Source: Candidatus Krumholzibacteriota bacterium
GTDB lineage: Bacteria; Krumholzibacteriota; Krumholzibacteriia; LZORAL124-64-63
Direction: 5' to 3'
Assembly: GCA_022711765.1 (NCBI GenBank)
Contig: JAKLEB010000001.1
Location: forward strand, 724,694-788,693
DNA: 64,000 nucleotides
Shown here one piece after another: positions 17,356 through 62,799 of this stretch (the stretch's first letter is position 1; each line of letters begins with the position of its first letter). Under the pieces are notes generated by a model. The model made no database searches. It saw nothing but the letters and a program-made list of their open reading frames with translations, and had not been told where the DNA came from. The position numbers and the translations under genes were made by a program.

Positions 17356-17405
17356 CAGGGACCTACCTCACAAAGAGCCGACGCCGCCGGCGCCGGACGC
17401 GGTCG

Positions 17406-17490
<85 letters not shown>

Positions 17491-17526
17491 AAAAAACGGC
17501 CCGAGACGGCCCGGACCTGGCGACCC

Positions 17527-17555: not shown

Positions 17556-17584
17556 GCCGGCGACAGCGGGCCTATCCGCCCGGT

Positions 17585-18952: not shown

Positions 18953-19093
18953 GACGGCCTCCGGGGCGGTTGCGGATGGGCTTGGACAGATTGAGGGGGG
19001 CTGGTCCGGGTGTCAAGACCCGCGGTTTGGAGACACCCGTCTCTTGATGTAGATTGGGCGGATTCACGCGTTCGCCCAGCAAAGGAAGGTACG

Positions 19094-45013: not shown

Positions 45014-45129
45014 GGCGCATCCACTTTCGTCTGGCGCCTTCCGTGCGCGCGACAGGCTCCCTCACGCGAGTTCTGCAGTATGATTAAGGATGTCACGTAG
45101 TGTCAAGAAGGAACCCCGAGGCCAGGCCG

Positions 45130-46773
45130 ATGACGGACGTTCTCAAGGCCCTGGGAGCCACGATCCTGCTGGTTGCCGGGTGCTCCGGCGGACCTCCGGT
45201 CCGTTCGGATCTCTGGCGGGATCAGCCCTACGATCCCGGATCCCTCGACCTGCCGAGCGCCGCCGCGAGCGAGTGCCCCGACCGGAGCCGGTCCCGGACG
45301 GCCACGGGGTTCCGGCTCGCCCTGCCCGGAGAGATCGATCCGGCCGCCGCGCCGCTGCCACGGACCGAGGCCGAGCGTCACGTCTTCCACAACCTCTACG
45401 AGACCCTGGTGAGGATCGATTGCGAGGGCCGGCTGCGGGTGGGGCTCGCGGCGACCTGGCAAGCCTACGACGGCGGCCGGGTCTGGACGTTCACCCTTCG
45501 CGACGACGCGCGCTTCTGGGACGGCACGCCGCTCGGCGCGATCGACGTGATCGCGTCCTGGCGGCGCGCCCAGGATCTCTGCGAACGTCGAGGCGAGCCG
45601 TCGCCGTTCCTGCTCTTCGATCCCCGCGGCCCGGGCCTCGCGCCGGCCGGCGCGCGCGAGCTCGTGATCAGGCTGGACGTGGCGAGCGACGAGCTGCCTC
45701 TCGCGCTCGTGCATCCTGCGCTCGCGGTCGTGGGCGGTCCTGGCGGGAGGGGCTGGCTCCTGGGCAGCGGCCCCTGCCGCCCGGACAGCACGACCGGCGG
45801 CGGCGCACTCGTCCTGGTGCCGACGCCCGGTCACCCGGACGCGCCCCCCTGGCGGCGGGTCGAGGTCCTGACCGACGGCGGGCGCGATCCGCGCGAGTAC
45901 CTCGACATCGGGGCGGACGCGCTCGTGACCCGCGAGCGGGAGGTCGTCGCCTACTACGCCGGACGCCGGGCCACCCGCGTCGAGCCGCTGCCGTGGGACC
46001 GCTGGTACTACCTCGTCGCCCCGGCGGGGCCTGACGCGGACCGACTGCGCTGGACTGCCGGGTGGGACCGCCTGGAGCTGGCGCGCGAGGTCGTGGCGCA
46101 GGATGCCGCGCCGGCCGACTTCTTTCCCTGGGAACCGGCCGAGGGATCCTGCCCCGCGATCCCGCCGCCGGTGGCGGCGCTCGGCGCCCCCGCGCTTCCG
46201 GACGCGGATGTCCGCGCCTCGCGCGACGCCGACCTGGTGCTCTGGCCCGGCGACGACGCCGACGCGGGGCGCCTCGCGGAGCGGCTCGCCGCGATCGCCG
46301 CTCGACCGATCGGCGCCGACCCGAACGTCGTCAGCCGCGGGCCGCTCGCCCGACCGTTCCCCCCGGGGCCGGGCGTCGCCGCGGAGGCGCTCGCCGTCCC
46401 CGAGCGGGACCTCACCGCCCACCTGCAGGCAGCCCGCGCCGGCGCGGTGATCCTGCCCTGGCCGCGCCGTCTCCCGACGCCGTGCGGCGAGCTCGCCCGG
46501 CTGCTCTCGCTCGCCGAGTGGTTGCGTGAGGCCGGCCTCGAGCCGGGTCCCGACACCGGCAAGATCCCCCCCGGAGCGACGGCGGCCCGCCCCCTCGACG
46601 CCGCGGAGCCCGTCCGGACCCTGGCCATCGCCCGCCGGCTCGAGCGAGACCGGACGGTCCAGCCGCTGATCCGCACCCGGGCGCACCTCATTCACGCGCC
46701 GGATCTCGCGGGATTCGGCGCCAGCTTCGACGGCGCGCTCGAGTTGTGGTCTGCCGGCTGGCAGTCGCGCTAG
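45130..46773 (+). CDS. ABC transporter substrate-binding lipoprotein, family 5 (peptide/nickel type), orphan
   Basis: Internal Met of ORF 45100..46773. Lipobox LLVAGCSG. Family-5 SBP blocks (FHNLYETLVRID, WTFTLRDDARFWDG). No cognate permease or ATPase genes nearby. Confidence 0.65.
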   Translation: MTDVLKALGATILLVAGCSGGPPVRSDLWRDQPYDPGSLDLPSAAASECPDRSRSRTATGFRLALPGEIDPAAAPLPRTEAERHVFHNLYETLVRIDCEGRLRVGLAATWQAYDGGRVWTFTLRDDARFWDGTPLGAIDVIASWRRAQDLCERRGEPSPFLLFDPRGPGLAPAGARELVIRLDVASDELPLALVHPALAVVGGPGGRGWLLGSGPCRPDSTTGGGALVLVPTPGHPDAPPWRRVEVLTDGGRDPREYLDIGADALVTREREVVAYYAGRRATRVEPLPWDRWYYLVAPAGPDADRLRWTAGWDRLELAREVVAQDAAPADFFPWEPAEGSCPAIPPPVAALGAPALPDADVRASRDADLVLWPGDDADAGRLAERLAAIAARPIGADPNVVSRGPLARPFPPGPGVAAEALAVPERDLTAHLQAARAGAVILPWPRRLPTPCGELARLLSLAEWLREAGLEPGPDTGKIPPGATAARPLDAAEPVRTLAIARRLERDRTVQPLIRTRAHLIHAPDLAGFGASFDGALELWSAGWQSR

Positions 46774-46803: not shown

Positions 46804-47388
46804 ATGTCGAAATGGAACGAGATCTTGATGCGTGGATCCGCCAGCGACAAGGGGACCTCGATGTCGACGCGTCACGACGGTACGGCCGTGCTGGAATCCA
46901 CCGAGGTGGGTCGCCGCCTGGCCGGCAAGTACATGGGTTTCAAGCTGGGCGCCGAGAACTTCGCCCTGGAGATCCTCAAGGTCCAGGAGATCATCGGCTT
47001 GATGAACATCACCGCCGTGCCGCGCACGCCGGAATTCGTCCGCGGCGTGATCAACCTGCGCGGCAAGGTCATTCCCGTGATCGACCTGCGCCTGAAGTTC
47101 GGCATGCCCGCCAAGGAGTACACCGAACTGACCTGCATCATGGTCGTCCAGGTGGCGCTGAACGACGACCAGGTGACCATGGGCGTCATCGTGGACCAGG
47201 TCTCCGAGGTCATGGACATCAAGGCCGACCAGGTCGAGGAGCCCCCGCACTTCGGGGCGGGAGACGCCGGGCAGTTCCTGCTCGGCATGGGCAAGTTCCA
47301 GAACACCGTGGTCATGCTCCTGGACGCGGACAGCATCCTCACCGCGGGTGAGATGACGATGGTCGACGCCATGAGCGACGAAGCTTGA
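46804..47388 (+). CDS. cheW: CheW-like chemotaxis coupling protein (orphan)
   Basis: CheW domain (YMGFKLGAENFALEILKVQEIIGL...VRGVINLRGKVIPVIDLR). The start may instead be the ATG at 46861, which has AAGGGGA 5 nt upstream. Confidence 0.75.
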   Translation: MSKWNEILMRGSASDKGTSMSTRHDGTAVLESTEVGRRLAGKYMGFKLGAENFALEILKVQEIIGLMNITAVPRTPEFVRGVINLRGKVIPVIDLRLKFGMPAKEYTELTCIMVVQVALNDDQVTMGVIVDQVSEVMDIKADQVEEPPHFGAGDAGQFLLGMGKFQNTVVMLLDADSILTAGEMTMVDAMSDEA

Positions 47389-47463: not shown

Positions 47464-49410
47464 ATGCGCACGCTCCTCGCCGCCACGCTCCTGGCCGCCG
47501 CCGCGGCCCGCGTCGTCTGGCCCGCGCCGGCCGACAAGTTCAGCGCCGCCGAGCCCTGGCCCGGCCGGATCCCCGCCGCTGACGACCGCGGCTTCGACGT
47601 GCTGCAGTACGACCTCGAGGTGGACCTGGACATCGACGCCGGCGCGCCCGTGGAACGGCGGCTCTGGCTCGACGGCGTGATGCGCGTCATCCTGCGTCTG
47701 GCCGCCCCGCTGCCGCCCGAGGTGCGCCTCGACCTCGTGGACTCGCTCGGGGCGATCGAGGTCCGCTGGCAGGACGTCCCGACGCCGTTCGTCCAGGCCG
47801 GAGACAGCCTGCGCGTCGCGACCGGCCCCGGCGCCGCGGCCGGCGACACCGTCACCGTGACCGTGACCTACGGAGGGTACGTCCAGCGCCATGGGCCGAT
47901 GTCCGCCGGTCTCCTCACGCGAGCGCATGCCGGCGGGCGGCCAAGCGTGGGCAACGTGAACCAGCCGTATTCCAGCCACAGCTGGTTCCCGTGCAAGGAC
48001 CACCCGTCGGACAAGGCCGCGCTGCGCTTCGCGGTGACGGTCCCCGACACCCTCGCCGCGGTCGCGAGCGGCCGGCTCCTGGGGACCGAGGAACCGGCCC
48101 CGGGCCGCCGCACCTGGCGCTGGGCGACCGACCACCCGATCGCGCCGTACCTCGTCGGCCTCGCGGTGAGCGACTTCGCGGTCTGGGACGAAGACTGCGA
48201 CGGGGTGCCCCTGCAGTACCTCGTGTTTCCCGAACACCGCGCCGCCGCCGAGGCCGTGTTCGCCGAGACCTGCGCGATGATGCGCTGGCTCGGCGATCTC
48301 TGCGGTCCCTACCCGTTCGCCGACGAGAAATACGCGCAGGCCGAGTTCGTCTGGGGCGGCGCGATGGAGAACCAGACCGCGACCGTGATCGGTCAGACCG
48401 TGTTCGCGCAGCCGGTGCGCGACGCGCAGCTCACCGTGGTCCACGAGCTGTCGCACCACTGGTTCGGCGACAGCCTGACTCCGCGCCACTGGCGCGACAT
48501 CTGGCTCAACGAGGGTTTCGCGCGCTACGTCGAGCTGCTCTGGCTCGAGCACACCGAGGGCCCGCAGGCGTATCGCGAGCGCCTCCAGGGACTGAAGCCC
48601 GCCGACCTCTTCCAGGGCGACGGCCTGCTCGGCGATCCGGATCCCGTCCTGCAGCGGCTCGTCTACGACAAGGGAGCCTGGGTGCTGCACATGCTGCGGC
48701 TGTACCTCGGCGACCCGACGTTCTTCGCGTTCCTCCGCGAGTACGCCACCGATCCCGACCTGGCGTACGCGCACACCGATCGAGCCGCGCTCACCGCCGC
48801 GCTCGGCCGCGCCGCGGGCCGCGACCTGGCGCCGTTCCTCGCACCCTGGCTCGACACGGAGGCGCTGCCCGCGATCGGCGCGCGCTGGCGCGCCGGCGGC
48901 GGCTCGCGCACCCTGGTGGAGGTCGTCCAGAGCCAGGGCGAGCCGTTCTTCCCGCTCGTGGTGCCCGTGCGCGTGCACGCCGGCCTCGAGACCCGGGACC
49001 TGCTGCTGCGCATGGACGACCTGCTCGCCAGCGCGGAGGTCACGACCACGATGCCGGTCGACAGTGTCGTCGTCGATCCGGACGACCTCCTGCTGCGCGT
49101 GACCGCGGCCACGCCGCAGCCGCGGTTGCTCGCGGCCCAGGTCCGGCCCAATCCGGCCTCCGGCGCGACCGTCCTGGCGTACTGGCTCGCGGGCGCCGAC
49201 CGGGTCGCGGCCGCCGTGTACGATGTGCGCGGACGGCTCGTCAGGCGCATGGACCTCGGCGCGCAGCCGGCGACCGGCGACGGCGAGCCGCGCCTCTGGG
49301 TCTGGGATGGCCGCGACGAGGCCGGCCGGCGCGCCGCGGCCGGCGTCTACTGGCTGGAGCTCCGCACCCGCGACGACCGCGCGGCGCGCAAGGTCACGCT
49401 GCTGCGCTAG
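47464..49410 (+). CDS. M1-family aminopeptidase with signal peptide and C-terminal FlgD-Ig/T9SS-like sorting domain
   Basis: Internal Met of ORF 47407..49410. GAMEN motif (GGAMENQ), HELSHHWFGD...E zinc site. C-terminal ~80 aa (VRPNPASGATVLAYW...VYDVRGRLV...AGVYWLELRT...KVTLLR) shared with two other proteins in the window. Confidence 0.8.
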   Translation: MRTLLAATLLAAAAARVVWPAPADKFSAAEPWPGRIPAADDRGFDVLQYDLEVDLDIDAGAPVERRLWLDGVMRVILRLAAPLPPEVRLDLVDSLGAIEVRWQDVPTPFVQAGDSLRVATGPGAAAGDTVTVTVTYGGYVQRHGPMSAGLLTRAHAGGRPSVGNVNQPYSSHSWFPCKDHPSDKAALRFAVTVPDTLAAVASGRLLGTEEPAPGRRTWRWATDHPIAPYLVGLAVSDFAVWDEDCDGVPLQYLVFPEHRAAAEAVFAETCAMMRWLGDLCGPYPFADEKYAQAEFVWGGAMENQTATVIGQTVFAQPVRDAQLTVVHELSHHWFGDSLTPRHWRDIWLNEGFARYVELLWLEHTEGPQAYRERLQGLKPADLFQGDGLLGDPDPVLQRLVYDKGAWVLHMLRLYLGDPTFFAFLREYATDPDLAYAHTDRAALTAALGRAAGRDLAPFLAPWLDTEALPAIGARWRAGGGSRTLVEVVQSQGEPFFPLVVPVRVHAGLETRDLLLRMDDLLASAEVTTTMPVDSVVVDPDDLLLRVTAATPQPRLLAAQVRPNPASGATVLAYWLAGADRVAAAVYDVRGRLVRRMDLGAQPATGDGEPRLWVWDGRDEAGRRAAAGVYWLELRTRDDRAARKVTLLR

Positions 49411-51749
49411 CGCACGAGGGTGATCTTGAGGATCGCCTGGCCGCCCGGTCCGGCCGCGCGGACCCAGTACACGCCGCTCGCGCAGTCGCGCCCGCGATCG
49501 TCGCGACCGTTCCAGACCTCGCGGTATCGCCCGCCGGGCCGGAAGCCGTCGGCCAGCGCGCGGACCTGCCGCCCCGCGGCGTCGTGGATGGCGAGGCGGA
49601 CCGTTCCCGCGGCGGGGACCGTGAAGTAGATCGAGGCATGCGGGTTGAAGGGGTTGGGGACGCAGGGTCCCAGACGCAGCGCGGTCGCGTCAGGGACGTC
49701 GGTGGTCGAGCCGGCGATCGCGAAGACCGCGCTCTGATCCCAGCCGAGATTGCCGGCCGCGTCGCGGGCCAGCGCCCGCAGGCAAGCGCTGGCGCAGGCG
49801 AGGTCGGGCACCGTCCACGCCGCGCTGCCGTTCGCGGCGAGGCCGGTCAACGCCGTCGGCGCCCAGTGCTCGCCGCCGTCGCAGCTCAGCTCGAGGTCGA
49901 CCGCGACGACGGCGACGTTGTCGGCCGATTGCCAGGCGACCGTCACGACGGCGCCGGGTTCGAGCACCGCGCCCGCCGGCGGGCCCGCGCTCCACAGGAC
50001 TCCGGGCCCGTAGCGATCGCGCAGCGCGAAGACGCCGCTCTGGGCGACGCCGGCGTTGCCCTCGGGGTCGCGCGCCGTGACCCGCACCCGCAACGCCTCG
50101 CCCGGCACCGCGCCGAGGCTGCCGGTCCAGGTCCCCGCGTTCGCGAGGTTCCGCGCCAGGACCACCGGGTAGGTCGCGCCGCCGTCGCGGCTGAGGTGGA
50201 GGTCGACGGCGACGACGCCGCTCGCGTCCGTGGCCGTCCAGCGCACCGCCTGCGGATCGCCGAGAGTCCCGGCCTCGCCCGCGGCAGGCTGCAGGACGGA
50301 GACCGCGGGCGGCGTCTGGTCGAGGTCCACGACGCCGATCGCGACGGTGATGGTCGCCGGGTCGCGGGGCGCCAGGACATCGCGCACGTCGACGTCGGTG
50401 CGGGCGCCTCCGTTGGTCCGCGACGCCGGCAGCGTCGTCGCGGCGAAGCGCACCGCGCCGCTCGAGCCGGGCCAGGGATCGCCCGCGTCGCCGCGGTTCG
50501 CGCCGACCTGGTCCAGGCCGTCGGCCTGCTCCAAGGCGATCCCGGCGATCGGGCCCGCGTTGACCTCGTTCAGCGCCCGCGCGGCCGCGATCACCGACCC
50601 GTCGACGTGCCAGATCAGGAGGCCCGCTGCGGGGAGCGACGCGTCGAAACCGGTCCGCCGCCGGTTCTCGACCAGGAAGAGCTCCCCCGCAGCCATGTCC
50701 GGATCCCGGACCACGAGCACGTGGCCGGCCGGCAGGGTGACCGGGCCGTCCTCGCGCACGTCCACGACCGGCCCCCAGCCGAGGTCTCGCCGGCTCCAGG
50801 CGCACGGCAGCGACGGCGACGACGGCGTCCGCCCGTCGCCCCCCCAGCTGCCGGTCCCCATGAGCCCCCAGCCGCCGATGCCGGCGCCGCCGCCCACCGT
50901 GTCATAGAGGTCGGGCAGGCCCAGGACGTGGCCGTACTCGTGGCAGATCACGCCGATCTCGATCGCGCCGCCCGCGCAGCTCAGCTCGGGCACCAGGACG
51001 TAGTCGTCGACCTTGATGAAGCCGCCGCCCGCCCGCGCGGTCGCCGTGACGTAGGCGCCGTAGCCCCAGCCGGCGAGGAAGAAGCAATGGCTCCAGAGCT
51101 CGCTCGAACCGCATTCGCCGCCCTTGCCGGCGTGCATCACGACGACGCAGTCGACGTAGCCGTCGTCGTCGCCGCTGTTCGGCGCGCCGTCGGGACCGTC
51201 GTCGTCGTAGCGGCCCCAGTCGAAGCCCTGGACGTCGGCCGCCGCCACGACGTCGTACACGAAGCGGCCGGCGTTGTCGGGCGCGGCCCACACGTCCATG
51301 CCGTTGTGGTCGCCTGCGTAGTCGCCGACCGCGCGCGGTGCGCGCTTCCAGTCGATCACCTCGCCCACGACCTCGAGGGCGCCCCCGCTCGCCGCGAGGT
51401 AGTAGTCGCGGACGGAGTTCGTCCCGGTGAACCGCGCCTGCAGGGTCGCCTTCGGGATCGTGACCGCGCGGTCGCTGAATCCGCCCGGGATCACGAGGAG
51501 GCGCCTCGTGTCGGTCGCGCCCTTGTCACCGCCGGCGCCGACCGCCAGCCGCGACGGGAAGCCTGGGCGCGGGCCGGTCCAGCGCTCGAGCGCGGACGGC
51601 AGCGTCGCGCCCGAACCGGGGCGCGGCGGCGCGATGGCGAGGCCAGGCTGTGCGCCCGCCGCGGCGAGCGCCATCAGCGCCGCGCTGCAGAATGCGCGTG
51701 CACGGGCCGCTCGCTTGCGGTGGCCGCCTCGCACAACCGATTGCGACAT
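49407..51749 (-). CDS. M6-family (immune inhibitor A-like) metalloprotease with Ig-like repeats and C-terminal FlgD-Ig/T9SS-like sorting domain
   Basis: 780 aa. Signal peptide. HEYGHVLGLPDLYD, the M6 HExxHxxGxxD signature. Repeated beta-sandwich segments. C-terminus CVPNPFNPHASIYFTV...VRLAIHDAAGRQV...GVYWVRAAG...KITLVR. Confidence 0.75.
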   Translation of the reverse strand: MSQSVVRGGHRKRAARARAFCSAALMALAAAGAQPGLAIAPPRPGSGATLPSALERWTGPRPGFPSRLAVGAGGDKGATDTRRLLVIPGGFSDRAVTIPKATLQARFTGTNSVRDYYLAASGGALEVVGEVIDWKRAPRAVGDYAGDHNGMDVWAAPDNAGRFVYDVVAAADVQGFDWGRYDDDGPDGAPNSGDDDGYVDCVVVMHAGKGGECGSSELWSHCFFLAGWGYGAYVTATARAGGGFIKVDDYVLVPELSCAGGAIEIGVICHEYGHVLGLPDLYDTVGGGAGIGGWGLMGTGSWGGDGRTPSSPSLPCAWSRRDLGWGPVVDVREDGPVTLPAGHVLVVRDPDMAAGELFLVENRRRTGFDASLPAAGLLIWHVDGSVIAAARALNEVNAGPIAGIALEQADGLDQVGANRGDAGDPWPGSSGAVRFAATTLPASRTNGGARTDVDVRDVLAPRDPATITVAIGVVDLDQTPPAVSVLQPAAGEAGTLGDPQAVRWTATDASGVVAVDLHLSRDGGATYPVVLARNLANAGTWTGSLGAVPGEALRVRVTARDPEGNAGVAQSGVFALRDRYGPGVLWSAGPPAGAVLEPGAVVTVAWQSADNVAVVAVDLELSCDGGEHWAPTALTGLAANGSAAWTVPDLACASACLRALARDAAGNLGWDQSAVFAIAGSTTDVPDATALRLGPCVPNPFNPHASIYFTVPAAGTVRLAIHDAAGRQVRALADGFRPGGRYREVWNGRDDRGRDCASGVYWVRAAGPGGQAILKITLVR

Positions 51750-54165: not shown

Positions 54166-54594
54166 TCAGCGCAGGAGCACCGCCTTCGTGGTGCGGATCG
54201 CGGACTCCGTGGTCAGGCGCACGAGGTACGCGCCCGACGGGAGGGCGCGGCCGGCGTCGTCCGTGCCGCGCCAGCTGAGGATGTGGCGGCCGGCGGGGCG
54301 GGGGGTGTCGAGGAGCGTGACCAGGCGGCGGCCGCGGAGGTCGTGGATGGTGACGGTGGCGTGGGTCGGGCACGGGAGATCGAAGGAGATCGTCGTTGCC
54401 GGGTTGAAGGGGTTGGGGGTGGCGGGGTGGAGGATGATGGCTGCGGCCGCCACGCCAACGGGTTCCTCCGGCCCCTCTGGGTGATCAACCGGCAGAATGT
54501 CGTGGCAATCGACCGGGAGAAGGTGACGGACCGCAGGCGAGGTAGACCTCTCCATCGAACTCGCGGATACGGATCTCCGAGTAGTCCGGCACAT
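54166..54594 (-). pseudogene. orphan FlgD-Ig/T9SS-like C-terminal sorting domain without signal peptide or passenger domain; probable gene remnant
   Basis: 142-aa ORF whose last ~85 aa match the sorting domains of the M1 and M6 proteases (ATPNPFNPATTISFDLP...VTIHDLRGRRLV...GAYLVRLTT...KAVLLR). The N-terminal 55 aa are Arg/Ser-rich with no signal peptide. Upstream DNA is the AT-rich promoter of the HNH gene. Confidence 0.35.
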
Positions 54595-54713
54595 CGCAAC
54601 GACGACCAGCGTGTGCCTTTCCGCAGCATGGGATTCTCCCTCCGGAACTCGCCCACGACCCCACGATGATACGTCGATCTCAGCAACATTGTCGATCGTC
54701 CGCTCTTACCCCA

Positions 54714-54777: not shown

Positions 54778-55908
54778 ATGTCCTTCGTACCAGACGACTT
54801 CCGCCCCGGTCTGTCCGCCACCGAGGTCGACCGCGCCCTGCGCGGCGCCGTGTCGGCCTACGACCGCGCCCGCCGCAACGTCGCCCTCTGGTTCACCGAC
54901 GCCCTCGAGCGCGGCCTCTACCGCGACCTGGGCCACGCCAGCATGGAGATCTACGCCCGCGAGGGTCTCGGCTTCTCCCCCGGCCGCACGCGACAGTTCC
55001 TCGCCCTCGCCCGCGACCTGCGCCGGCTGCCGCACCTGCGCGCCGCGGTCACGGACGGGCGCCTCGGCTGGACCAAGGCGCAGGAGGTGGCGCGGGTGGT
55101 GGCGCCGGCGAGCGAAGCGGCGTGGGTCGAGCGCGCCGTCGCGTTGCCGCGGGACGAGCTGCGGCGCGAGGTGGCGACCGCGCGGGCGCGGGCGCGCGGT
55201 GCGCGGCTCGCGGCGCGGGGCAAGGCCGCGGGCCAGCTGGAGTCGTCGACCACCCGTGCGACGTCGACCCGCGGCGACGGATCGTCGCGCGCGGCGGCCC
55301 CCGCAGCCGCGCCGGCGACCATCCCGCCGACCACGATCGCGATCCAGCTCGACGCCCTCGAGCTCGCCCGCTTCGACGCCCTCGTCACGGCCGCGAGGAG
55401 ATCCGGCGCCGTCGCCGCCGACGCGACGCGCGCCGAGATCGTGCTCTCCGGACTCGCCGCCCTTACGAAAACTCCGCAGCGCGTACGCCGCGGACGTGGC
55501 GTCGGCCGCACGCACGGCAGCGCAAGCTGTCAGTATAACGGCGCGCGCCACCTTGCCCCGGCCGCCACGGTGATCGTGCAGCGATGTCCGGAGTGCGACG
55601 CCGCCTTCGCGCTCACGACCGCGGGACCCAAGCGGCTCGACCGCGCCGCGGACGCCGCGCTCGCCTGCGACCACGTCGCGCGGGACGCGCGCGGGCACAA
55701 CCGCAGCGCGGTCCCGCCGGCCGTCCGGCGGCAGGTGCTCGATCGCGACGGGCATCGCTGCACGACAGCGGGTTGCGATAACACGCGCTTCCTAGAGGTC
55801 CATCACGTCGTGCCCAGAGCGCAGGGAGGGACCAACACGACGGATAACCTGACGACGTTGTGCGCGCGGTGCCACCGGTTCGCGCACGAGCGGGCCCCCG
55901 CCCCCTAG
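54778..55908 (+). CDS. HNH endonuclease with N-terminal DUF222-like domain (actinobacterial 13E12-repeat type)
   Basis: 376 aa. C-terminal HNH motif C..C...H..HH.....GG.N..DNL..LC..CH, preceded by an Ala/Arg-rich helical domain. Stop overlaps the convergent Omp85-fusion gene by 4 nt. Confidence 0.75.
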   Translation: MSFVPDDFRPGLSATEVDRALRGAVSAYDRARRNVALWFTDALERGLYRDLGHASMEIYAREGLGFSPGRTRQFLALARDLRRLPHLRAAVTDGRLGWTKAQEVARVVAPASEAAWVERAVALPRDELRREVATARARARGARLAARGKAAGQLESSTTRATSTRGDGSSRAAAPAAAPATIPPTTIAIQLDALELARFDALVTAARRSGAVAADATRAEIVLSGLAALTKTPQRVRRGRGVGRTHGSASCQYNGARHLAPAATVIVQRCPECDAAFALTTAGPKRLDRAADAALACDHVARDARGHNRSAVPPAVRRQVLDRDGHRCTTAGCDNTRFLEVHHVVPRAQGGTNTTDNLTTLCARCHRFAHERAPAP

Positions 55909-58900
55909 AAATCCGGTCCGATCGAGAAGTGGAACACGCTGCCGTCGACGTGGCGCAGGTCGGTCCGCCAGGCCCAGTCGAACTTGAGCGGCAGCCAGAA
56001 CACGTTGGCGCGCAGGCCGAAGCCGAAGTCGCCGCGGAGGTCGCCGAACGCCCCGTCGTCGAAGAACTGGACCTCGTCGGTCCAGGCGCAGCCGGCGTCG
56101 AAGAAGACGGCGCCGCCGATGCCCGTGAGGCCCCACTGGCCGGGCCAGCCGAAGATCAGGTAGTCGACGAAGGGCAGGCGGTACTCGAGGCTCGCGAGGG
56201 CCATCTTGGTGCCGGCGAGGTTGTCGAGGGTCTGGTAGTCGTAGTAGCGGTAGCCGCGGAGGGTCCAGGGGCCGCCGATCACGAAGCCGCGCGGATCCTC
56301 GCCCGCCGAGTGGGCGTAGGTGAGGCGCAGGGCGAGGCTGTTGCGCCGCAGCGGCAGCCAGTATTTGCGGAGGTCGCCGACGAAGTTGAAGCGGTCGAGG
56401 CTGCTGTCGGAGAGCGGCAGGCCCTTGGCGACGCTCAGCGACCAGCGGCTGCCGGCCACGGGGCCGTGCAGGCCGTACAGCGCGTTGTCGTGGACGAAGC
56501 TGAGCGCCGGTTGCAGGAGGCGGCTCCGCCGCTTGGCGACCGGCACCAGGAAGCCGAACTCGTCGAAATCGTAGTCGGTGCGGTCGCTGTTGAGGATCTC
56601 CACATCGAAATCGACGCGCTCGAAGACCGACAGCGGGTAGCTCGCGCGGCCGAAAAATCCGTAGTTGCGCTCCTTGAAGAGGGTCTCGTCGGTCAACAGC
56701 TCGCCCACGCTGGTGATGACCGAGTTGTAGTAGTTGTTGTACAGGAACGCGCCGGCCGACAGGTCGACGCGGCGCTTGAGGAAGGTGTAGGCTGCGGCGA
56801 GGTCGCTGTTGTCGACGGCGCCGTAGAAATTCACCAGGAAGTCGAGGCGGCGGTCGCCGAGGTCGTCGGTCAGCGTGATGACGTTGGCGAAGCCGAGGCC
56901 GCCCGCGCTCGTCCAGTACACGGCGCCGCCGGCCCCGGCGCGGGTCGCGTCGAGGCGGAAGCGGGGGCGGTAGCGTTCGACGAGGCCGATGCGGTCGGGG
57001 TCGATCCGCACGGTGTCGGGGGGACCGGCGCGCGTGACGAGCTGCGGCGGTTCGATCACGACCGGGCCCGGCGCCGTGCCGCCCGGCGTCCGCGCCGACC
57101 AGCTGCCGCGGAACTGGTCGGCGGCGTAGAGATCGTAGCCTGCGTTATGGAACGCGCTGAAGACGAGGCGGTCGCCGGCGACCGCGTAGGTGAGATGCTG
57201 CAAGCCGCCGAGGAGGTTCGTCAGCGGGCGGTCGCTGGCCACGGCCGAGCCTGTCGAATCGAGCGCCACGAGCGACAGGTTGTCGATGCCGTTCGCGCCG
57301 TCGACCACGACGAGCGCGCGATCGTCGATCCACACGGGGTCGCGGCGGCGGTCGCGGGACGCGAAGAGGCGGCTCCGCGCGCCGTCAAGCGCGAGGACCT
57401 CGACCGCCGGCGGCGGCGCCGTCCGGGTCGTGTCGAGGGCCGCCTCGCCCACGAGGCGCGCCTGGCGCAGGCGCTTGGCGCCGTCCGCCAGCAGCTCGAT
57501 CTCGAAGGCGACCTCGGCCAGCGGATTGAACGAGAAGGCGAGCCGCGAGCCGTCCGGCGACCAGGCCGGCGAACTCTCGTCGCCGGCGTCGTCCGTCAGG
57601 CGCACGAGGCGCGCGCCGTCCGGCAGTCGGCGCGGCGGCGCGGCGGCGGCGACCCCGAGGCTGTCGAGCGCGCCGGGGACCATCTCCACGAGGTAGAGAT
57701 CGGTGCGGCCGCGGTCGGTGCCCACGAGGGCGACCAGGCGGCCGTCGGGCGACCAGGCCGGATCGGCGGCGACGTCGAGCTCGAGATCCCAGCTGCGGGT
57801 CACGTCGCCGTTCGCCGCGTCGATCGTGTGCAGCGTCTCCCGGTTGCCGCTCTTCGCGACCAGGACGACCTCGCGGCCGTCCGGCGACCAGCCCAGGCCC
57901 GAGCGGAAACTGTGGAAGCTCTCGAAGCGGCTCGCGCGCATGCTGCGGCCGAGGCGACGGATCACCTGGCCGTCGATGGCCGACAGGAGATAGAGGTCGA
58001 TCAGACCGTCGCGGTCGGTGAAGCAGGCGACCAGGTCGCCGTCGGGATTCAGGGCGGGCCGACCGTAGAACGACGCCTCGTCCGTCTCGACGCCGGTCAG
58101 CGGCCGCGAGATGTCCTCCATCTGCTCGAGGTCGCTGAAGCCCGGCCAGTAGCGCTGGCGGAGGGACCGGTGGTAGAGCTCCTCGAATTCCTCCATCGTC
58201 AGACCGTAGGTGAGCGCGAGCGCGCGGTCGACGCTGCGCACGCGGCCGACGGTGCGCCAGAACTCGTTGAGGCGCTCGGCGCCGTAGCGATCGGAGAGCA
58301 GGCGCATCGCCGCCTGGCCCTGCTTGTAGACCAGGTAGCCGCCGACCCGCTCGAGCGGCTGCAGGTAGTCGTTGATCGTGGCGTCGCGGATGACCATGTC
58401 GGCGTTCGCGTCCCAGCCCGAGCTGAGCCACTCGGCCACGCCCTCGGCGAACCACAGGGGGATATTGAAGAAGGCGTTGCGGCCGAGGTCGACGCTGCGG
58501 GAGCCGAAGGCCATGTCGAACATGAAGACGTGGACCAGCTCGTGGCGGATCACGTGCACGAGGTCGGCGTGCGAGCCGTTGTACGGCAGGACCATGCGGT
58601 TGCGGAACGGCTCGGAGAAGCCGCCGGTGCCCTCGCCGATGAGGTAGTCGGAGATGTTGGTCTGCGCGAATTCGGCGTGGCTCGAGTAGAGGATCAGCGG
58701 CGTGCGCAGCGGCAGATCGCGGTCGAGGCGATCGGCGTACTCCTTGTAGGCGCGCTCGGCGATGATCGCCGCGCGGAACGCGAGCTCCTCGGCGCCGTCG
58801 TGGAAGTGCAGGTCGAAGTGCGGAGTCGTGAGCACGCGCCAGTCGTGGTCGCCGGTCTGGACCTTGTTCTTGCCGTACCGCTGCGCCTGCGCCGGTACGG

Positions 58901-58979
58901 CGCAGGCGATCGCGCACAGCACGACCACGAGCGCTCTAGTACTCGAAACGATACTTGAGATCGAGATTGTACGTCGCAT
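55905..58979 (-). CDS. Omp85-superfamily outer-membrane beta-barrel protein whose periplasmic region is an HExxH zinc-peptidase-like domain plus a PD40/TolB-type beta-propeller instead of POTRA domains
   Basis: 1024 aa. Signal peptide. HELVHVFMFD...WFAEGVAEW around residue 150. At least three WSPDG PD40 repeats between residues 330 and 480. C-terminal ~380 aa with the Omp85 L6 RGY motif (GGPWTLRGYRYYD) and terminal aromatic signature ...FHFSIGPDF. The 5' end overlaps the tamB-like gene by 44 nt. Confidence 0.7.
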   Translation of the reverse strand: MRRTISISSIVSSTRALVVVLCAIACAVPAQAQRYGKNKVQTGDHDWRVLTTPHFDLHFHDGAEELAFRAAIIAERAYKEYADRLDRDLPLRTPLILYSSHAEFAQTNISDYLIGEGTGGFSEPFRNRMVLPYNGSHADLVHVIRHELVHVFMFDMAFGSRSVDLGRNAFFNIPLWFAEGVAEWLSSGWDANADMVIRDATINDYLQPLERVGGYLVYKQGQAAMRLLSDRYGAERLNEFWRTVGRVRSVDRALALTYGLTMEEFEELYHRSLRQRYWPGFSDLEQMEDISRPLTGVETDEASFYGRPALNPDGDLVACFTDRDGLIDLYLLSAIDGQVIRRLGRSMRASRFESFHSFRSGLGWSPDGREVVLVAKSGNRETLHTIDAANGDVTRSWDLELDVAADPAWSPDGRLVALVGTDRGRTDLYLVEMVPGALDSLGVAAAAPPRRLPDGARLVRLTDDAGDESSPAWSPDGSRLAFSFNPLAEVAFEIELLADGAKRLRQARLVGEAALDTTRTAPPPAVEVLALDGARSRLFASRDRRRDPVWIDDRALVVVDGANGIDNLSLVALDSTGSAVASDRPLTNLLGGLQHLTYAVAGDRLVFSAFHNAGYDLYAADQFRGSWSARTPGGTAPGPVVIEPPQLVTRAGPPDTVRIDPDRIGLVERYRPRFRLDATRAGAGGAVYWTSAGGLGFANVITLTDDLGDRRLDFLVNFYGAVDNSDLAAAYTFLKRRVDLSAGAFLYNNYYNSVITSVGELLTDETLFKERNYGFFGRASYPLSVFERVDFDVEILNSDRTDYDFDEFGFLVPVAKRRSRLLQPALSFVHDNALYGLHGPVAGSRWSLSVAKGLPLSDSSLDRFNFVGDLRKYWLPLRRNSLALRLTYAHSAGEDPRGFVIGGPWTLRGYRYYDYQTLDNLAGTKMALASLEYRLPFVDYLIFGWPGQWGLTGIGGAVFFDAGCAWTDEVQFFDDGAFGDLRGDFGFGLRANVFWLPLKFDWAWRTDLRHVDGSVFHFSIGPDF

Positions 58980-61900
58980 CGCCCTGGTACTCGTCGATCC
59001 GGCGGCGGATCTCCGTCTGCAGCAGCAGGTGGTTGGTGATCTGGTACTCGATCAGCAGGTCCCGGTCGTTCTGGTTCACGCCCTGCGCGTACGTGATGTA
59101 GAGGTCGGTGCCGACATACTTGCCAACGCCGATCAACGGGTCGAGGCCGGTCTCGCCGCTCGTCTGCTGGCGCTGGATCTGCTCGATCTCGACCGTGTCG
59201 AAGATACCGATCTCCGAGGCGATCTCGCGCTCGAGGATGTTCAAGCCGGCCGAGATCGACGCGTTCGCGAGGACGTCGCTGTCGCCCTGCGCGTCCGGAT
59301 AGGGCGAGAGGCCGAGCAGCATGCGCTCGATCGCCGCGCGCGGATAGCCGCTCTCGCTCGAATAGCTGATCTCCATGGCATCGGCCGGGCCGGTCGCGTG
59401 GACGGTGATCAGCTCGACCACGCTCGCGCCCTGGACCTGGCTCGGCAGGCGCACGCGGGTCTCGGCGTCGATGTCGACGTTGGGCACCACGCCGACCGCC
59501 CGGCTGAAATCGAGGCGGCCGCGCACGACCTTGAAGGTGTTGTTGAACACCGGCAGGCGGCCGTTGTCGATGTCCATGCCGCCCTTGATGATCATCCCGT
59601 CGGCGTCGCGCACGACGGTGACGTCGCCGGAGAGGTCGAGATCCATCGTGCGGTTGACGATGCGGGCGGTGCGCGGCGGACCGCTGACCCGCACGTCCGC
59701 GAGCCAGTTCGGCGCGACCGTGCCGAGGGTCGGATCGAGGGTGCCCTCGGTGGCGGCGAAGTTGCCCGTGTAGCGCCCGCGGATCAACTCGAAGTCGCCG
59801 GTGAAATGAGGCACCAGGGTGCTGTCCGGACCGACGGGCACGCCGGTGAGGCGGCCGTTGTCCGTCCGGACCAGGGCCCGCAGGTCGGGGATCGAGGCCA
59901 CCAGGAATCGATCGGCGGCGAACGCGATGTCCCAGGTCTTCAGCACGAGTCCCGCGAAGGTCACGGAGCCGGAGCCCGTGAAGACGCCGCGCTGGCCTTC
60001 CTGGCCGCGCAGCTCCTGGACGATCAGCAGATCGTCCTGGAAGACCCCGCGCGCGCGGCAGTCATGGTAGACCTCCTCGTTGCCGCGCAGGACGAACGCG
60101 ACGTCATCGACGGCGATCGTGCCCTGGTAGACGGGGTGCGAGAGCGGGCCGGACACGATCAGGTCGGCCTGGCCGCGGCCGGAGCAACGGCTGAACGCGT
60201 TGGTCGCGTCCAGAAGCGGCGCCAGGTCGGTTCCGGCGGGCACGACGAGGTGGCCGAAGAACGGGCCGTCCGGGGGCGTCGTCGGCGCCGCCAGCAGGTC
60301 AAAGCTCAGCGGCAGCTCGAGGCGGCCCTCCAGGCGGAGTTCGTCCTGGTTGCCGCGCAGATCGCCGAACGCGAGCTGCCCGTCCTCGGCGCGGACGGTG
60401 CCGGTGAGCCGATCCAGGTGCAGCCACTGGAAGTGGAAGGGCGCGCTGTCGAGATCGCCGGTCACCAGCGGGTCCTCGCTCGTCCCGGCCAGGTGCAGGT
60501 CGCCGCGGAACCGGCCCGCGAGCCGGTCGAGCGCCGGCAGCTGGAATTGCTCGAGGAACGCCCAGTCGCCGTCCGGGATCTCGATGTCGAGGTCCAGCGA
60601 CGCGCCCGGCCAGAACTCGCGGAGGCTGGCGCCCCGGTGGCTCACCGTGCCGGCCAGACGGACCCTGCCGAACTCGCTGGCCACGTCGACCGCATCGATC
60701 GTCACCGTGCCGCGGCGGAGGTGCGCGGCCACCCTGAGCGAATCGACGCGGGCGAGCGGGAACCTCGCGTCCACGAGGTCGCCGCGCAGGGTGACCGTGG
60801 GCGAATCGGGCCGCCCGCCGACCTCCACGAGAGCGGTCGCGCGGCCGCCCGTCTGCACCGACCGGCGCAGCAGCGGGTCCAGCAGGTCGAGATCGAAGTT
60901 CGTCGCCTCCAGGCGACCGTTGAGCAGATCGTCGGCGGCGCGGTAGTCGACGGACGCGGTGAAATCGCCGTGGTCGGAGACGAGGCGCAAACGCGGGACC
61001 TGCACGAGGCCGTCGCCGACGGCGGCCGCCACGGCGGCGTCGGTGCGCCATTCGTTGCCGGCGAAGTCGATCGCGAGCCCGGCGACATTCAGATCGGCCC
61101 GCCCCGGCGACAGGTCGGCGCGGCCGCGGCAGGCGACGACCGTATCGCCGTGGACCGTGCGCAGGGAGTCGACCTCGACGCTGGTCGGGCCGACCCGGGT
61201 CCACAGGAGGTAGCGGCCGAGCGGCACGCCGCCGAGCGCGAAGCCGTCGCCCTCGGTCGCGGCGCTCAGGGACCAGTCCTCGCCCAGGACCCGCTCGGCG
61301 AGCACGTCCGCGGTGCCGGTCGTCGCGGTCAACGTGCCCACGGCGAGGTCGGCGAACTCGAGGGTGCCGGCGGCCTCGAGCGCATCGAGCGGCCCGTCGA
61401 GCGCGACCTGCCCGGCGAGCCGGCCGCCGAGCGCCGGCCAGCCCCAGCCGGGCGGGACGCTGCGCAGGTCGGCGCAGGCGACGTCGAGCCAGCCGGCGAA
61501 GACCTCGTCGCGATCGCTGGTGCCGGCCAGTCGCGCCCGCAGCGCGCCGTGGCTCAGGTCGACGGAGCGGAAATGGAGCGAGTCCCCCCGGGCCCAGACA
61601 TCGACCCGGCACGTATCGAAGGGCATGATCTCGATCTCGCCGTCGACGATCAGCCCGCTCACCCGCGTCGCCTCGTCGGCGGTCGTGTGCACGATCTCGA
61701 GCCGGCCGTGGCCCGCGGTCCGCGGCAGGTCCGCGACCTCCGGGATCAGGCCGGCGCGCAGGTCGAGATCGCGCGCATCGCCGGCGATCGTGATGACCGT
61801 GCCGGCTGGGTCGCGGGCGTCGACGCGCAGCGTCCCGTCGAACCAGGCGCCGCCGACCCCGCCGCGCAGCACCGCGAACTCGGCCACCCCGCCCGAGACC

Positions 61901-62799
61901 ACCGCCTCGCCCCGGACGGCGTCGAGGTTCCACTGCTCGAAGCGCCCGGAGAAATCGCCGGCGAAGCGCACGGTATCGTCGTGGGCCGTGACCGTGCAAT
62001 CGACGTCGCCGGCCGCGTCGAAGTCGAGGGACAGCCCGACGAGATCGTTCACGGCCGCGACCGAAACGCCGCGCGCGGCCACGGCCACCGCCACGCCGGC
62101 CTCGGTGACGCCGCCGTCGACGGTCACGCGGCCGTCGTTCCACAGCGCGCTGAGGTCCCTCGCCCGCACGCCGTCTTTCGCGATGGTGAGCTCGCCGTAG
62201 AGCCGGTCCAACGTCGACCTGCGGGTGTCCCAGCGCACCGAGCCGCCCCGCGAGACCAGCCGGAGGCGCTCGCCGTCGCCACGGATCCCGCCGCGCCACC
62301 CGACGTCCTGCAGGAGCTCGCGCTGCCGGCCGTCGGCGTCGGCGATCTCGATCCGCGCGTTGCGGACATCGACGAGATCCACCTCGATCCGCGGGATCGC
62401 CCGCGGCTCGTCGTCCGCGGCCGCCGCCGGCTCGGTCGCCGGCGGCTGGTTGTGATAGACCTCCACCCCGCGCATCGCCAGCCGACGCAGCCGCAGCCGG
62501 GGTCCCAGGACCTCCCGCAGGCGGAAGTCGATCTCGAGCGTGTCCACCGCGACGAGCGTCAGGCCGCCCCGTTCGCCGCGGACGGTCAGGGTGGCGTCGT
62601 AGGCGTCCAGGCCGCCGAACGCGCGCACGTGGTAGGCGCCGACCCGCAGATGGCCGTTCAGGCGCGCTTCGAGCTGCCGGTTCACGAGGCGGGTCGCGAA
62701 CGGCGCCAGGACCTGCGGATTGCGGTCGAGCAGGACCACTCCCCCCGCCAGCAGCAGGAGGGTGAGGATGGCCGGCCAGCGGATGCGTCGTCGCGCCAT
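58936..62799 (-). CDS. tamB: TamB-like translocation and assembly module protein (AsmA/DUF490 family)
   Basis: Internal Met of ORF 58936..63669 (MARRRIRWPAILTLLLLAGGVVLLD signal-anchor). 1288 aa of repetitive beta-rich sequence. C-terminal DUF490-like region (...GKYVGTDLYITYAQG...DLKYRFEY). Located 2 nt downstream of an Omp85 gene. Confidence 0.8.
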   Translation of the reverse strand: MARRRIRWPAILTLLLLAGGVVLLDRNPQVLAPFATRLVNRQLEARLNGHLRVGAYHVRAFGGLDAYDATLTVRGERGGLTLVAVDTLEIDFRLREVLGPRLRLRRLAMRGVEVYHNQPPATEPAAAADDEPRAIPRIEVDLVDVRNARIEIADADGRQRELLQDVGWRGGIRGDGERLRLVSRGGSVRWDTRRSTLDRLYGELTIAKDGVRARDLSALWNDGRVTVDGGVTEAGVAVAVAARGVSVAAVNDLVGLSLDFDAAGDVDCTVTAHDDTVRFAGDFSGRFEQWNLDAVRGEAVVSGGVAEFAVLRGGVGGAWFDGTLRVDARDPAGTVITIAGDARDLDLRAGLIPEVADLPRTAGHGRLEIVHTTADEATRVSGLIVDGEIEIMPFDTCRVDVWARGDSLHFRSVDLSHGALRARLAGTSDRDEVFAGWLDVACADLRSVPPGWGWPALGGRLAGQVALDGPLDALEAAGTLEFADLAVGTLTATTGTADVLAERVLGEDWSLSAATEGDGFALGGVPLGRYLLWTRVGPTSVEVDSLRTVHGDTVVACRGRADLSPGRADLNVAGLAIDFAGNEWRTDAAVAAAVGDGLVQVPRLRLVSDHGDFTASVDYRAADDLLNGRLEATNFDLDLLDPLLRRSVQTGGRATALVEVGGRPDSPTVTLRGDLVDARFPLARVDSLRVAAHLRRGTVTIDAVDVASEFGRVRLAGTVSHRGASLREFWPGASLDLDIEIPDGDWAFLEQFQLPALDRLAGRFRGDLHLAGTSEDPLVTGDLDSAPFHFQWLHLDRLTGTVRAEDGQLAFGDLRGNQDELRLEGRLELPLSFDLLAAPTTPPDGPFFGHLVVPAGTDLAPLLDATNAFSRCSGRGQADLIVSGPLSHPVYQGTIAVDDVAFVLRGNEEVYHDCRARGVFQDDLLIVQELRGQEGQRGVFTGSGSVTFAGLVLKTWDIAFAADRFLVASIPDLRALVRTDNGRLTGVPVGPDSTLVPHFTGDFELIRGRYTGNFAATEGTLDPTLGTVAPNWLADVRVSGPPRTARIVNRTMDLDLSGDVTVVRDADGMIIKGGMDIDNGRLPVFNNTFKVVRGRLDFSRAVGVVPNVDIDAETRVRLPSQVQGASVVELITVHATGPADAMEISYSSESGYPRAAIERMLLGLSPYPDAQGDSDVLANASISAGLNILEREIASEIGIFDTVEIEQIQRQQTSGETGLDPLIGVGKYVGTDLYITYAQGVNQNDRDLLIEYQITNHLLLQTEIRRRIDEYQGDATYNLDLKYRFEY

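What the first reader, a model, noticed from the sequence alone, without database searches (positions are those of the whole stretch)
47464..51749. Convergent M1 and M6 secreted metalloproteases share a C-terminal FlgD-Ig/T9SS-like sorting domain
Both proteases end with the same ~80-aa beta-sandwich tail (PNP(F/A)NP...V.L.(I/V)(Y/H)D..GR.V....G.Y......D..G......GVYW(L/V).....KV(T/I)L(L/V)R). A third copy occurs as an orphan fragment at 54166..54594. The domain resembles the C-terminal sorting tags used for surface or extracellular targeting in several candidate FCB phyla. Its presence on two HExxH proteases hints at a secreted proteolytic arsenal and at the likely lineage of the organism.
Basis: partly seen in the sequence, partly recalled or inferred. 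Interest (0 to 1): 0.55.

Follow-up and report, generated by a model that had tools for sequence, protein, structure and literature searches.

The report
Two secreted proteases sharing an export tail
Two neighbouring zinc proteases of an uncultured Krumholzibacteria bacterium end in the same roughly 90-residue export tag of the type IX secretion kind, and a third, stand-alone copy nearby is the leftover end of a destroyed gene; this is an ordinary, already automatically annotated arrangement.

Summary
An M1 aminopeptidase (47464..49410, +) and an M6 InhA-like protease (49407..51749, -) converge and share only an ~87-91-aa C-terminal domain (BLASTP E 7e-10). A third copy lies at 54166..54453. 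All three pass Pfam FlgD_ig; only the orphan passes the T9SS type-A model TIGR04183.

The tail behaves like a sorting domain:
- It ends exactly at the stop codon in 71 of 72 cases in 831 kb of related DNA.
- It sits behind unrelated passenger domains.
- In some M6 homologues it is replaced by membrane-anchor-type C-terminal tags.
- It keeps the Gly-loop and terminal-Lys motifs shown to matter for T9SS export.
- Its confident model (pLDDT 95) best matches the PorU and PorZ C-terminal domains.

NCBI names the organism Candidatus Krumholzibacteria. The orphan is the 3' remnant of a 787-aa cargo gene that is intact at the same position in a relative; an HNH gene now occupies the rest.

T9SS core genes could not be tested: none occur in the ~82 kb of this genome I could see. 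Verdict: new member of a known kind, low interest.

The parts
47464..49410 (+). M1-family aminopeptidase gene, 648 aa, with signal peptide, M1 N-terminal and catalytic domains, and the C-terminal tail
   Evidence: Pfam Peptidase_M1 E 2e-28, Peptidase_M1_N and FlgD_ig. NCBI name 'M1 family aminopeptidase [Candidatus Krumholzibacteria bacterium]'.
47464..47532 (+). Probable Sec signal peptide of M1 (MRTLLAATLLAAAAARVVWPAPA)
   Evidence: By inspection. The maximum 12-aa hydropathy is 2.26, starting at residue 4. No predictor was run.
48442..48456 (+). M1 zinc-binding motif HELSH, followed 18 residues later by Glu; GAMEN lies at residues 299-303
   Evidence: Motif scan.
49147..49407 (+). M1 C-terminal tail (residues 562-648), an FlgD_ig / type-A-CTD-like beta-sandwich ending KVTLLR
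   Evidence: All 120 listed M1 homologues carry it at the C-terminus.
49404..49413 (.). Palindrome GCGCTAGCGC formed by the two converging Arg-stop ends; the stop codons overlap in CTAG at 49407-49410
   Evidence: Sequence read.
49407..51749 (-). M6-family (immune inhibitor A-like) metalloprotease gene, 780 aa
   Evidence: Pfam Peptidase_M6 E 4.7e-32; TIGR03296 at 168.6 bits against a cutoff of 110.8. The exact protein is on record in GCA_035392125.1.
49410..49682 (-). M6 C-terminal tail (residues 690-780), ending KITLVR
   Evidence: AlphaFold2 model with pLDDT 95.1. Best structural matches are the PorU and PorZ C-terminal domains.
50025..50309 (-). Ig-like module(s) between the catalytic domain and the tail (Big_7 / Kre9_KNH-like, residues 481-575)
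50607..51479 (-). M6 catalytic domain (residues 91-381), with HEYGH at residues 270-274 (50928..50942)
51641..51749 (-). Probable Sec signal peptide of M6: Arg-rich n-region, hydrophobic AFCSAALMALAAAGA, then QPGLA
   Evidence: By inspection. The maximum hydropathy is 2.07, starting at residue 20. Another assembly calls a start 25 codons later.
54166..54453 (-). Orphan tail: a 95-codon ORF consisting only of the tail, with no signal peptide and no passenger domain
   Evidence: FlgD_ig E 2.8e-9; TIGR04183 at 30.4 bits against a cutoff of 23. GC3 is 0.97. It is 55% identical to the tail of a 787-aa protein at the same position in L064.
54454..54601 (-). Decayed upstream remains of the lost cargo gene: linker homology down to 54522 in the orphan's frame, and a 25-aa piece (DGEVYLA) in another frame at 54601..54524
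   Evidence: tblastn of the L064 787-aa protein against the window: residues 673-787 at E 3e-29, and residues 73-97 at E 0.016, which is weak. GC3 is 0.66.
54778..55908 (+). HNH endonuclease gene occupying the place of the lost cargo-gene body; absent from this position in all relatives examined
   Evidence: Pfam HNH. Synteny. DNA collinearity of the flanks.

Best explanation
The two genes encode active zinc proteases, an M1 aminopeptidase and an M6 InhA-like endopeptidase. Each is probably exported across the inner membrane by an N-terminal Sec signal peptide. Each is then probably carried across the outer membrane, or fixed to the cell surface, by its C-terminal ~90-residue beta-sandwich. 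[quoted passage not shown] It differs from the textbook Bacteroidota version mainly by a short 'W-x-G-x-D-x-x-G' loop after the fifth strand, at the place where PorU and PorZ also carry an extra hairpin. Shown here: domain identity, fold, motif conservation, strict terminal position, independence from the passenger domain, and replacement by other sorting tags in homologues. Inferred: that a T9SS exists in this Krumholzibacteria genome and recognises the tail, and what happens to the tail afterwards (cleavage and lipid attachment, or release). The third copy is not a working gene. It is the 3' end of a former 787-aa cargo gene whose body was lost where an HNH endonuclease gene now lies.
For: Domain identity:
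- Pfam FlgD_ig is above the gathering score for all three tails.
- The orphan is above the TIGR04183 cutoff.
- Relatives' tails are precomputed as PF18962 plus PF13860, and NCBI names them 'T9SS type A sorting domain-containing protein [Candidatus Krumholzibacteria]'.
- Members that match PF18962 only align over the full length of the tail and differ by a 5-residue loop deletion.

Fold:
- The AlphaFold2 model has pLDDT 95.1.
- The best PDB matches are the PorU C-terminal domain 6za2 (TM 0.73) and PorZ 5m11, ahead of FlgD.
- A profile search hits the whole PorU and PorZ C-terminal domains and the RgpB C-terminal domain.

Motifs:
- The motifs that mutagenesis showed to be needed for export in P. 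gingivalis are kept (PMC11285876). These are the D-x-x-G-R loop between strands 3 and 4, with its Gly invariant, and a Lys in the last strand.

Position:
- 71 of 72 tail hits in 831 kb of related loci end at the stop codon.
- 103 of 104 M6 homologues with a tail, and 120 of 120 M1 homologues, carry it at the C-terminus.

Independence from the passenger domain:
- The same tail follows C25 gingipain-like, S8, CotH, Exo_endo_phos and BlaR1-like proteins.
- Most of the 16 M6 homologues without the tail end instead in a Gly-rich stretch plus a membrane helix and an Arg-rich end.

Other:
- Both proteases have signal-peptide-like N-termini and intact active sites.
[quoted passage not shown] Metallopeptidases make up about 10% of annotated TIGR04183 proteins (PMC11205867).
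- Orphan.
Against: No T9SS core gene (SprA/Sov, PorV, PorU, PorK/L/M/N) was seen. None occurs in the ~82 kb of this genome that could be read. A GldK-motif search of the related loci found none. The rest of the 2.06-Mb contig was out of reach. The M1 and M6 tails score only about 13 bits on TIGR04183 against a cutoff of 23. By sequence, the closest solved relatives are FlgD Ig domains. The same fold occurs as internal tandem repeats in very large proteins: 751 of 837 domains in the top hits are internal, so the fold alone is not a sorting signal. M6 homologues from Elusimicrobiota end in a related tail, although that phylum is outside the FCB superphylum, where T9SS genes are reported absent (PMC11285876). 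No paper in the library links Krumholzibacteria with T9SS.
Confidence: 0.7

Rival explanations
1. The tail is a genuine C-terminal sorting signal, but for a pathway other than the canonical T9SS. This would be an as yet undescribed outer-membrane translocation or anchoring system in lineages outside Bacteroidota.
For: No T9SS component was seen in the accessible part of the genome. The M1 and M6 tails fall below the TIGR04183 cutoff. Related terminal tails occur on M6 proteases of Elusimicrobiota, a phylum outside the FCB superphylum. No literature links Krumholzibacteria to T9SS.
Against: The tails align continuously with canonical PF18962 tails. They share the functional motifs and their best structural matches are PorU and PorZ. 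T9SS is reported in neighbouring phyla (PMC11285876). Relatives carry a classic T9SS cargo type, a gingipain-like C25 protease with its pro-domain. Only about 4% of the contig was inspected.
Confidence: 0.12
2. The tail is not a sorting signal. It is an ordinary Ig-like accessory module, used for substrate or cell-surface binding or for folding and maturation, that happens to sit at the end of secreted enzymes.
For: The fold is generic and is repeated internally in giant proteins. Structural neighbours include Ig/Fn-like modules of C5a peptidase and Vpr. Sequence similarity to FlgD is stronger than to the solved T9SS C-terminal domains.
Against: The tail ends at the very last residue in 71 of 72, 103 of 104 and 120 of 120 cases. 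The terminal K-x-x-L-x-[KR] strand is conserved. The tail is attached to many unrelated enzymes. In M6 homologues it is replaced by membrane-anchor-type C-terminal tags. Internal repeats mostly lack the last strand of the profile: only 13 of 751 internal domains reach it.
Confidence: 0.12
3. The tails are flagellar FlgD-related, as some pipelines name them, and are connected with the neighbouring CheW gene.
For: JGI names many tail fragments 'flagellar hook assembly protein FlgD'. FlgD structures are the best sequence hits in the PDB. CheW lies next to M1.
Against: Only the Ig-like part of FlgD matches. Scores of 17-28 bits are far below the FlgD equivalog cutoffs of 230-383. There is no FlgD N-terminal domain. 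The proteins are proteases with signal peptides.
Confidence: 0.01

Closest known systems
T9SS type-A C-terminal sorting domain (TIGR04183 / PF18962), as on P. gingivalis gingipains and T. forsythia KLIKK proteases
   Same: It is about 80-90 aa long and lies at the extreme C-terminus of Sec-exported hydrolases. It has a beta-sandwich fold, a D-x-x-G-R loop between strands 3 and 4, and a Lys in the last strand. It is attached to many passenger families, including metalloproteases (PMC11285876, PMC11205867).
   Different: The M1 and M6 tails score below the curated TIGR04183 cutoff. They carry an extra W-x-G-x-D-x-x-G loop that makes them match FlgD_ig instead. The host is Krumholzibacteria, for which no T9SS has been described in the searched literature. 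The machinery was not seen here.
C-terminal domains of the T9SS components PorU (PDB 6za2) and PorZ (PDB 5m11)
   Same: These are the best structural matches, with TM 0.73 and 0.55, and are matched over the full domain by the tail profile. Both carry an insertion after the fifth strand (PMC11285876), where the tails here carry their FlgD-like loop.
   Different: The PorU and PorZ domains are not cleaved and belong to machinery proteins. Sequence identity is only 23-24%.
Ig-like domain of the flagellar hook cap FlgD (PF13860; PDB 3osv, 7eh9)
   Same: This is the closest solved relative by sequence over the central strands, E 6e-10 with the 41-sequence profile.
   Different: There is no FlgD N-terminal or Tudor-like part. 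The first strand (PNPFNP) and the last strand (K-x-T-L-L-R) of the tails lie outside the aligned stretches, which cover profile positions about 23-82 of 91. The host proteins are exported proteases.
Immune inhibitor A (M6) and aminopeptidase N-type (M1) metalloproteases
   Same: The catalytic domains and zinc motifs are intact.
   Different: The M1 has no Pfam hit between residue 462 and the tail that starts at residue 562. The M6 combines Ig-like modules with the tail. This architecture is found in more than 100 listed homologues, which carry automatic names.

Membership tests
Pfam FlgD_ig (PF13860) | HMM score at or above the gathering score of 27 bits | tested here: met
   M1 36.6, M6 29.0 and orphan 37.3 bits.
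T9SS type-A CTD (TIGR04183 / PF18962) | HMM score at or above the curated cutoff (23 bits for TIGR04183, 27 bits for PF18962), M1 and M6 tails | tested here: not met
   TIGR04183: M1 13.5 and M6 13.2 bits. There was no PF18962 hit for either.
T9SS type-A CTD (TIGR04183 / PF18962) | HMM score at or above the curated cutoff, orphan tail | tested here: met
   TIGR04183 at 30.4 bits, above the cutoff of 23. PF18962 at 20.5 bits is below its cutoff of 27.
T9SS type-A CTD (TIGR04183 / PF18962) | Domain ends at the C-terminus of the protein | tested here: met
   All three window copies run to the last residue. In related loci 71 of 72 do so. Among homologues the counts are 103 of 104 and 120 of 120.
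T9SS type-A CTD (TIGR04183 / PF18962) | Compact Ig-like beta-sandwich resembling solved CTDs | tested here: met
   Model with pLDDT 95.1. The top Foldseek hits are the PorU and PorZ CTDs; the mirolase CTD and a translocon-bound CTD are also listed.
T9SS type-A CTD (TIGR04183 / PF18962) | Conserved Gly in the strand 3-4 loop and Lys in the last strand (motifs shown to be needed in P. gingivalis, PMC11285876) | tested here: met
   D34, G37, R38 and K86 are invariant in the three tails. G37 is invariant and D34 nearly invariant across 41 sequences.
T9SS type-A CTD (TIGR04183 / PF18962) | N-terminal Sec signal peptide on the same protein | tested here: inconclusive
   M1 and M6 have typical n/h/c regions by eye and by hydropathy, but no predictor was available. 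The orphan has none.
T9SS type-A CTD (TIGR04183 / PF18962) | T9SS core genes (SprA/Sov, PorV, PorU, PorK/L/M/N) in the same genome | not testable with these tools
   None occur in the ~82 kb seen. The remaining ~2 Mb of the contig could not be fetched.
T9SS type-A CTD (TIGR04183 / PF18962) | Tail-dependent export and removal of the tail shown by experiment | not testable with these tools
   The organism is uncultured and no data are available.
FlgD flagellar hook cap | Full-length match to an FlgD equivalog model, including the N-terminal FlgD domain | tested here: not met
   Only the Ig part matches. Scores of about 12-28 bits compare with cutoffs of 197-383 bits.
Peptidase family M1 | GxMEN exopeptidase motif and HExxH-x18-E zinc site | tested here: met
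   GAMEN at residue 299 and HELSH at residue 327, followed by Glu 18 residues later. Pfam Peptidase_M1 E 2e-28.
Peptidase family M6 (active, not the inactivated T9SS-dependent M6-like family NF052323) | M6 domain model above cutoff with HExxH present | tested here: met
   TIGR03296 at 168.6 bits against a cutoff of 110.8. HEYGH is present. NF052323 scores only 78.8 bits against a cutoff of 600.

The most novel reading that the evidence does not exclude
The FlgD_ig-type terminal tail may define a sorting signal served by machinery that is not the canonical Bacteroidota T9SS. It is present on hundreds of thousands of proteins in Krumholzibacteriota, Latescibacterota, Zixibacteria and Cloacimonadota, and in a variant form in Elusimicrobiota. 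On this reading Krumholzibacteria would export these proteases through an undescribed or strongly diverged outer-membrane system.
Probability: 0.1. Interest if true: 0.65.

Novelty: new member of a known kind. Interest (0 to 1): 0.2.

Why it matters
The finding gives a reasonable prediction that this Krumholzibacteria organism puts an endopeptidase and an aminopeptidase outside the cell. Both genes lie next to an oligopeptide-binding lipoprotein gene, which fits a protein-degrading way of life. It also extends the list of lineages that carry T9SS-type cargo tails. On the practical side, it shows that such tails are often mislabelled as flagellar FlgD, and that curated T9SS-tail models miss many non-Bacteroidota tails. 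None of this changes current understanding.

Tried and rejected
1. Folding the whole M6 protein from a single sequence gave an unusable model, pLDDT 33. Only the tail folded with an alignment was informative.

2. I looked for T9SS core genes.
- Precomputed Pfam labels for the window and about 9 kb beyond each end show housekeeping genes only.
- A GldK/FGE-sulfatase motif search over all fetched loci found nothing.
- Two further neighbourhoods in Krumholzibacteria relatives showed none.
- I had no T9SS component sequence to use as a query.

3. A 1559-aa C25 protein between M6 and M1 in relative L004 was considered as a PorU sortase candidate. It matches gingipains RgpB and Kgp with their pro-domain instead, so it is cargo.

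4. I considered that the two converging tails might form a hairpin or terminator. Only short GC-rich inverted matches turned up, together with a 10-nt palindrome that follows from both genes ending in Arg-stop.

5. A conserved ~1800-aa ORF near Elusimicrobiota M6 genes was tested as a possible translocon. It has no Pfam match.

6. The alternative C-terminal tags on tail-less M6 homologues were not named by NCBIfam. I describe them from the sequence only.

7. Literature searches linking Krumholzibacteria or allied candidate phyla with T9SS returned nothing relevant.

Full report
**What is there**

The window is part of a 2.06-Mb contig of the metagenome-assembled genome GCA_035392125.1. NCBI names its proteins as from 'Candidatus Krumholzibacteria bacterium'.

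At 47464..49410 (+) lies a 648-aa M1 aminopeptidase.
- It has Pfam Peptidase_M1_N and Peptidase_M1.
- It carries GAMEN and HELSH-x18-E.

At 49407..51749 (-) lies a 780-aa M6 immune-inhibitor-A-like protease.
- It has Peptidase_M6 and matches TIGR03296 at 168.6 bits against a cutoff of 110.8.
- It carries HEYGH and Ig-like modules.

The genes converge, and their stop codons share CTAG inside the palindrome GCGCTAGCGC. Both N-termini look like Sec signal peptides. This was judged by eye and by hydropathy only.

**The shared tail**

The only significant similarity between the two proteases is in the last 87 residues: 36% identity, E 7e-10, running to the final residue.

A third copy, at 54166..54453 (-), matches the M6 tail at E 3e-20 and the M1 tail at E 1e-9.

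A small HMM of the three tails finds no further copy in the six-frame translation of the window.

All three pass Pfam FlgD_ig. On the T9SS type-A model TIGR04183, the orphan passes with 30.4 bits against a cutoff of 23. M1 and M6 do not, with about 13 bits each.

**What the tail is**

A profile of the three tails matches 360,332 cluster representatives at E <= 1e-3. Close fragments are precomputed as PF13860 together with PF18962, and NCBI names some of them 'T9SS type A sorting domain-containing protein [Candidatus Krumholzibacteria]'.

In a 41-sequence alignment, members that match only PF18962 align end to end with the window tails. They differ by a five-residue deletion of the 'G-R-D-D-A-G' loop.

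The tail model is confident, with pLDDT 95.1. Its best solved-structure matches are the C-terminal domains of the T9SS proteins PorU (TM 0.73) and PorZ, followed by FlgD.

By sequence, the central strands are closest to FlgD, at E 6e-10. The profile also covers the whole PorU and PorZ C-terminal domains, at E about 5e-4 to 1e-3, and hits the RgpB C-terminal domain.

Mutagenesis in P. gingivalis identified two motifs as needed for export (PMC11285876). One is the loop between strands 3 and 4, with its Gly. The other is the last strand, with its Lys. Both are conserved here as D-x-x-G-R and K-x-T-L-[LV]-R.

**Is it a sorting tag or just an Ig fold?**

Several observations point to a sorting tag.
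- In 831 kb of related loci, 71 of 72 matches end exactly at a stop codon.
- Of 120 M6 homologues, 104 have the tail, 103 of them at the C-terminus. All 120 M1 homologues have it there.
- In relatives the same tail follows unrelated passenger domains. These include a gingipain-like C25 protease with its pro-domain, S8 proteases, CotH, an Exo_endo_phos enzyme and a BlaR1-like protein.
- Most of the 16 M6 homologues without the tail end instead in a Pro/Thr linker, a Gly-rich stretch, a hydrophobic helix and an Arg-rich end. This is the layout of sortase-type C-terminal anchors, as read from the sequence. NCBIfam did not name them. Interchange of terminal tags on one enzyme family argues for a targeting role.

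One observation points the other way. Among the highest-scoring proteins the fold is mostly an internal tandem repeat: 751 of 837 domains are internal. The fold as such is therefore generic. Only 13 of those 751 internal copies reach the last strand of the profile.

**Machinery**

I could not test whether the genome encodes a T9SS.
- About 82 kb around the genes contains none of its components.
- No such component turned up in related loci either.
- The searched literature does not link Krumholzibacteria with T9SS.
- T9SS is reported or suspected in Fibrobacterota, Gemmatimonadetes, Cloacimonadota, Ignavibacteriota and other FCB phyla (PMC11285876).

M6 proteases of Elusimicrobiota also end in a related tail. 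It lacks PNPFNP and ends GKLxLxR. This keeps open the possibility of a non-canonical pathway.

**The orphan**

Only the 95 tail codons look coding: GC3 is 0.97 there against 0.66 upstream. There is no signal peptide.

Four relatives (L002, L003, L005, L006) have the Omp85-family gene directly next to uvrD. Another Krumholzibacteriia genome (L064) has a 787-aa tail-bearing gene in exactly that position.
- The orphan is 55% identical to that protein's tail (E 1e-32). This is higher than its identity to any other tail compared directly (41-45%).
- The homology continues into the linker before the tail. A 25-residue piece of the N-terminal region survives in another frame, although that match is weak, at E 0.016.
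- The DNA flanks are collinear.

The orphan is therefore the 3' remnant of a lost cargo gene. An HNH endonuclease gene (54778..55908) now fills the gap.

**Context**

The arrangement Omp85-family gene, uvrD, M6, then converging M1, CheW and an SBP_bac_5 gene is conserved across relatives. The SBP_bac_5 protein has a lipobox (LVAGC) by eye and weak OppA-like matches. This is compatible with extracellular proteolysis feeding peptide uptake, but that link is an inference.

**Verdict**

This is a further example of a very common and already auto-annotated architecture, in a lineage where the secretion system itself has not been described. It is a new member of a known kind, and of low interest.

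Noticed in passing
window 55905..58979 (-): A 1024-aa Omp85-family protein has an N-terminal HExxH (HELVH) metalloprotease-like region with a flagellinolysin-like match. It also has a TolB/PD40 propeller and a BamA-like barrel. It lies directly after bamA and a tamB-like gene (58936..62799) and is conserved next to uvrD-M6-M1 in relatives.
   Followed up: partly
window 54778..55908 (+): An HNH endonuclease gene is present at this position only in this genome, where relatives have either nothing or an intact 787-aa cargo gene. Its 3' end overlaps the Omp85-family gene's stop by 4 nt. It matches the IscB model only over the HNH part.
   Followed up: partly
L064 4634..6994 (Krumholzibacteriia GCA_041390065.1): This is the intact 787-aa counterpart of the orphan. 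It has a signal-peptide-like start, no Pfam hit apart from the tail, and a passenger domain of unknown function. The 479-aa ORF called next to it looks like an antisense artefact over a fragmented uvrD.
   Followed up: partly
L004 12443..17119 (-) and 17250..19922 (+): A close relative carries two extra tail-bearing genes between M6 and M1. One is a gingipain-like C25 protease with its pro-domain; the other is a CotH kinase-LTD protein. The site therefore behaves as a cargo-gene island.
   Followed up: yes
L022-L051 (Elusimicrobiota loci), e.g. L046 9818..11518 and 14040..19454: Elusimicrobiota M6 proteases end in a variant tail without PNPFNP, ending GKLxL[IV]R. About 4 kb downstream of many of them lies a conserved ~1800-aa ORF with no Pfam match.
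   Followed up: partly
proteins P0296, P0297, P0314, P0316, P0321, P0322, P0326, P0327, P0329 (M6 homologues): These M6 homologues lack the tail. They end instead in a Pro/Thr linker, a Gly-rich stretch with C-S-G, a hydrophobic helix and an Arg-rich end. This resembles sortase-type C-terminal anchors but was not named by NCBIfam.
   Followed up: partly
proteins P0009, P0016-P0018, P0022, P0024 and others: JGI annotation names many tail fragments 'flagellar hook assembly protein FlgD'. This is a systematic mislabel of these sorting tails.
   Followed up: no
window 45100..46773 (+) and 46804..47388 (+): An SBP_bac_5 (OppA/NikA-like) protein with a lipobox, and a CheW gene, are conserved next to the M1 gene in relatives. 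No ABC permease genes are adjacent.
   Followed up: no
window 49404..49413: A perfect 10-nt palindrome, GCGCTAGCGC, arises because both converging genes end with Arg (CGC) plus TAG. There is no room for a terminator between them.
   Followed up: yes
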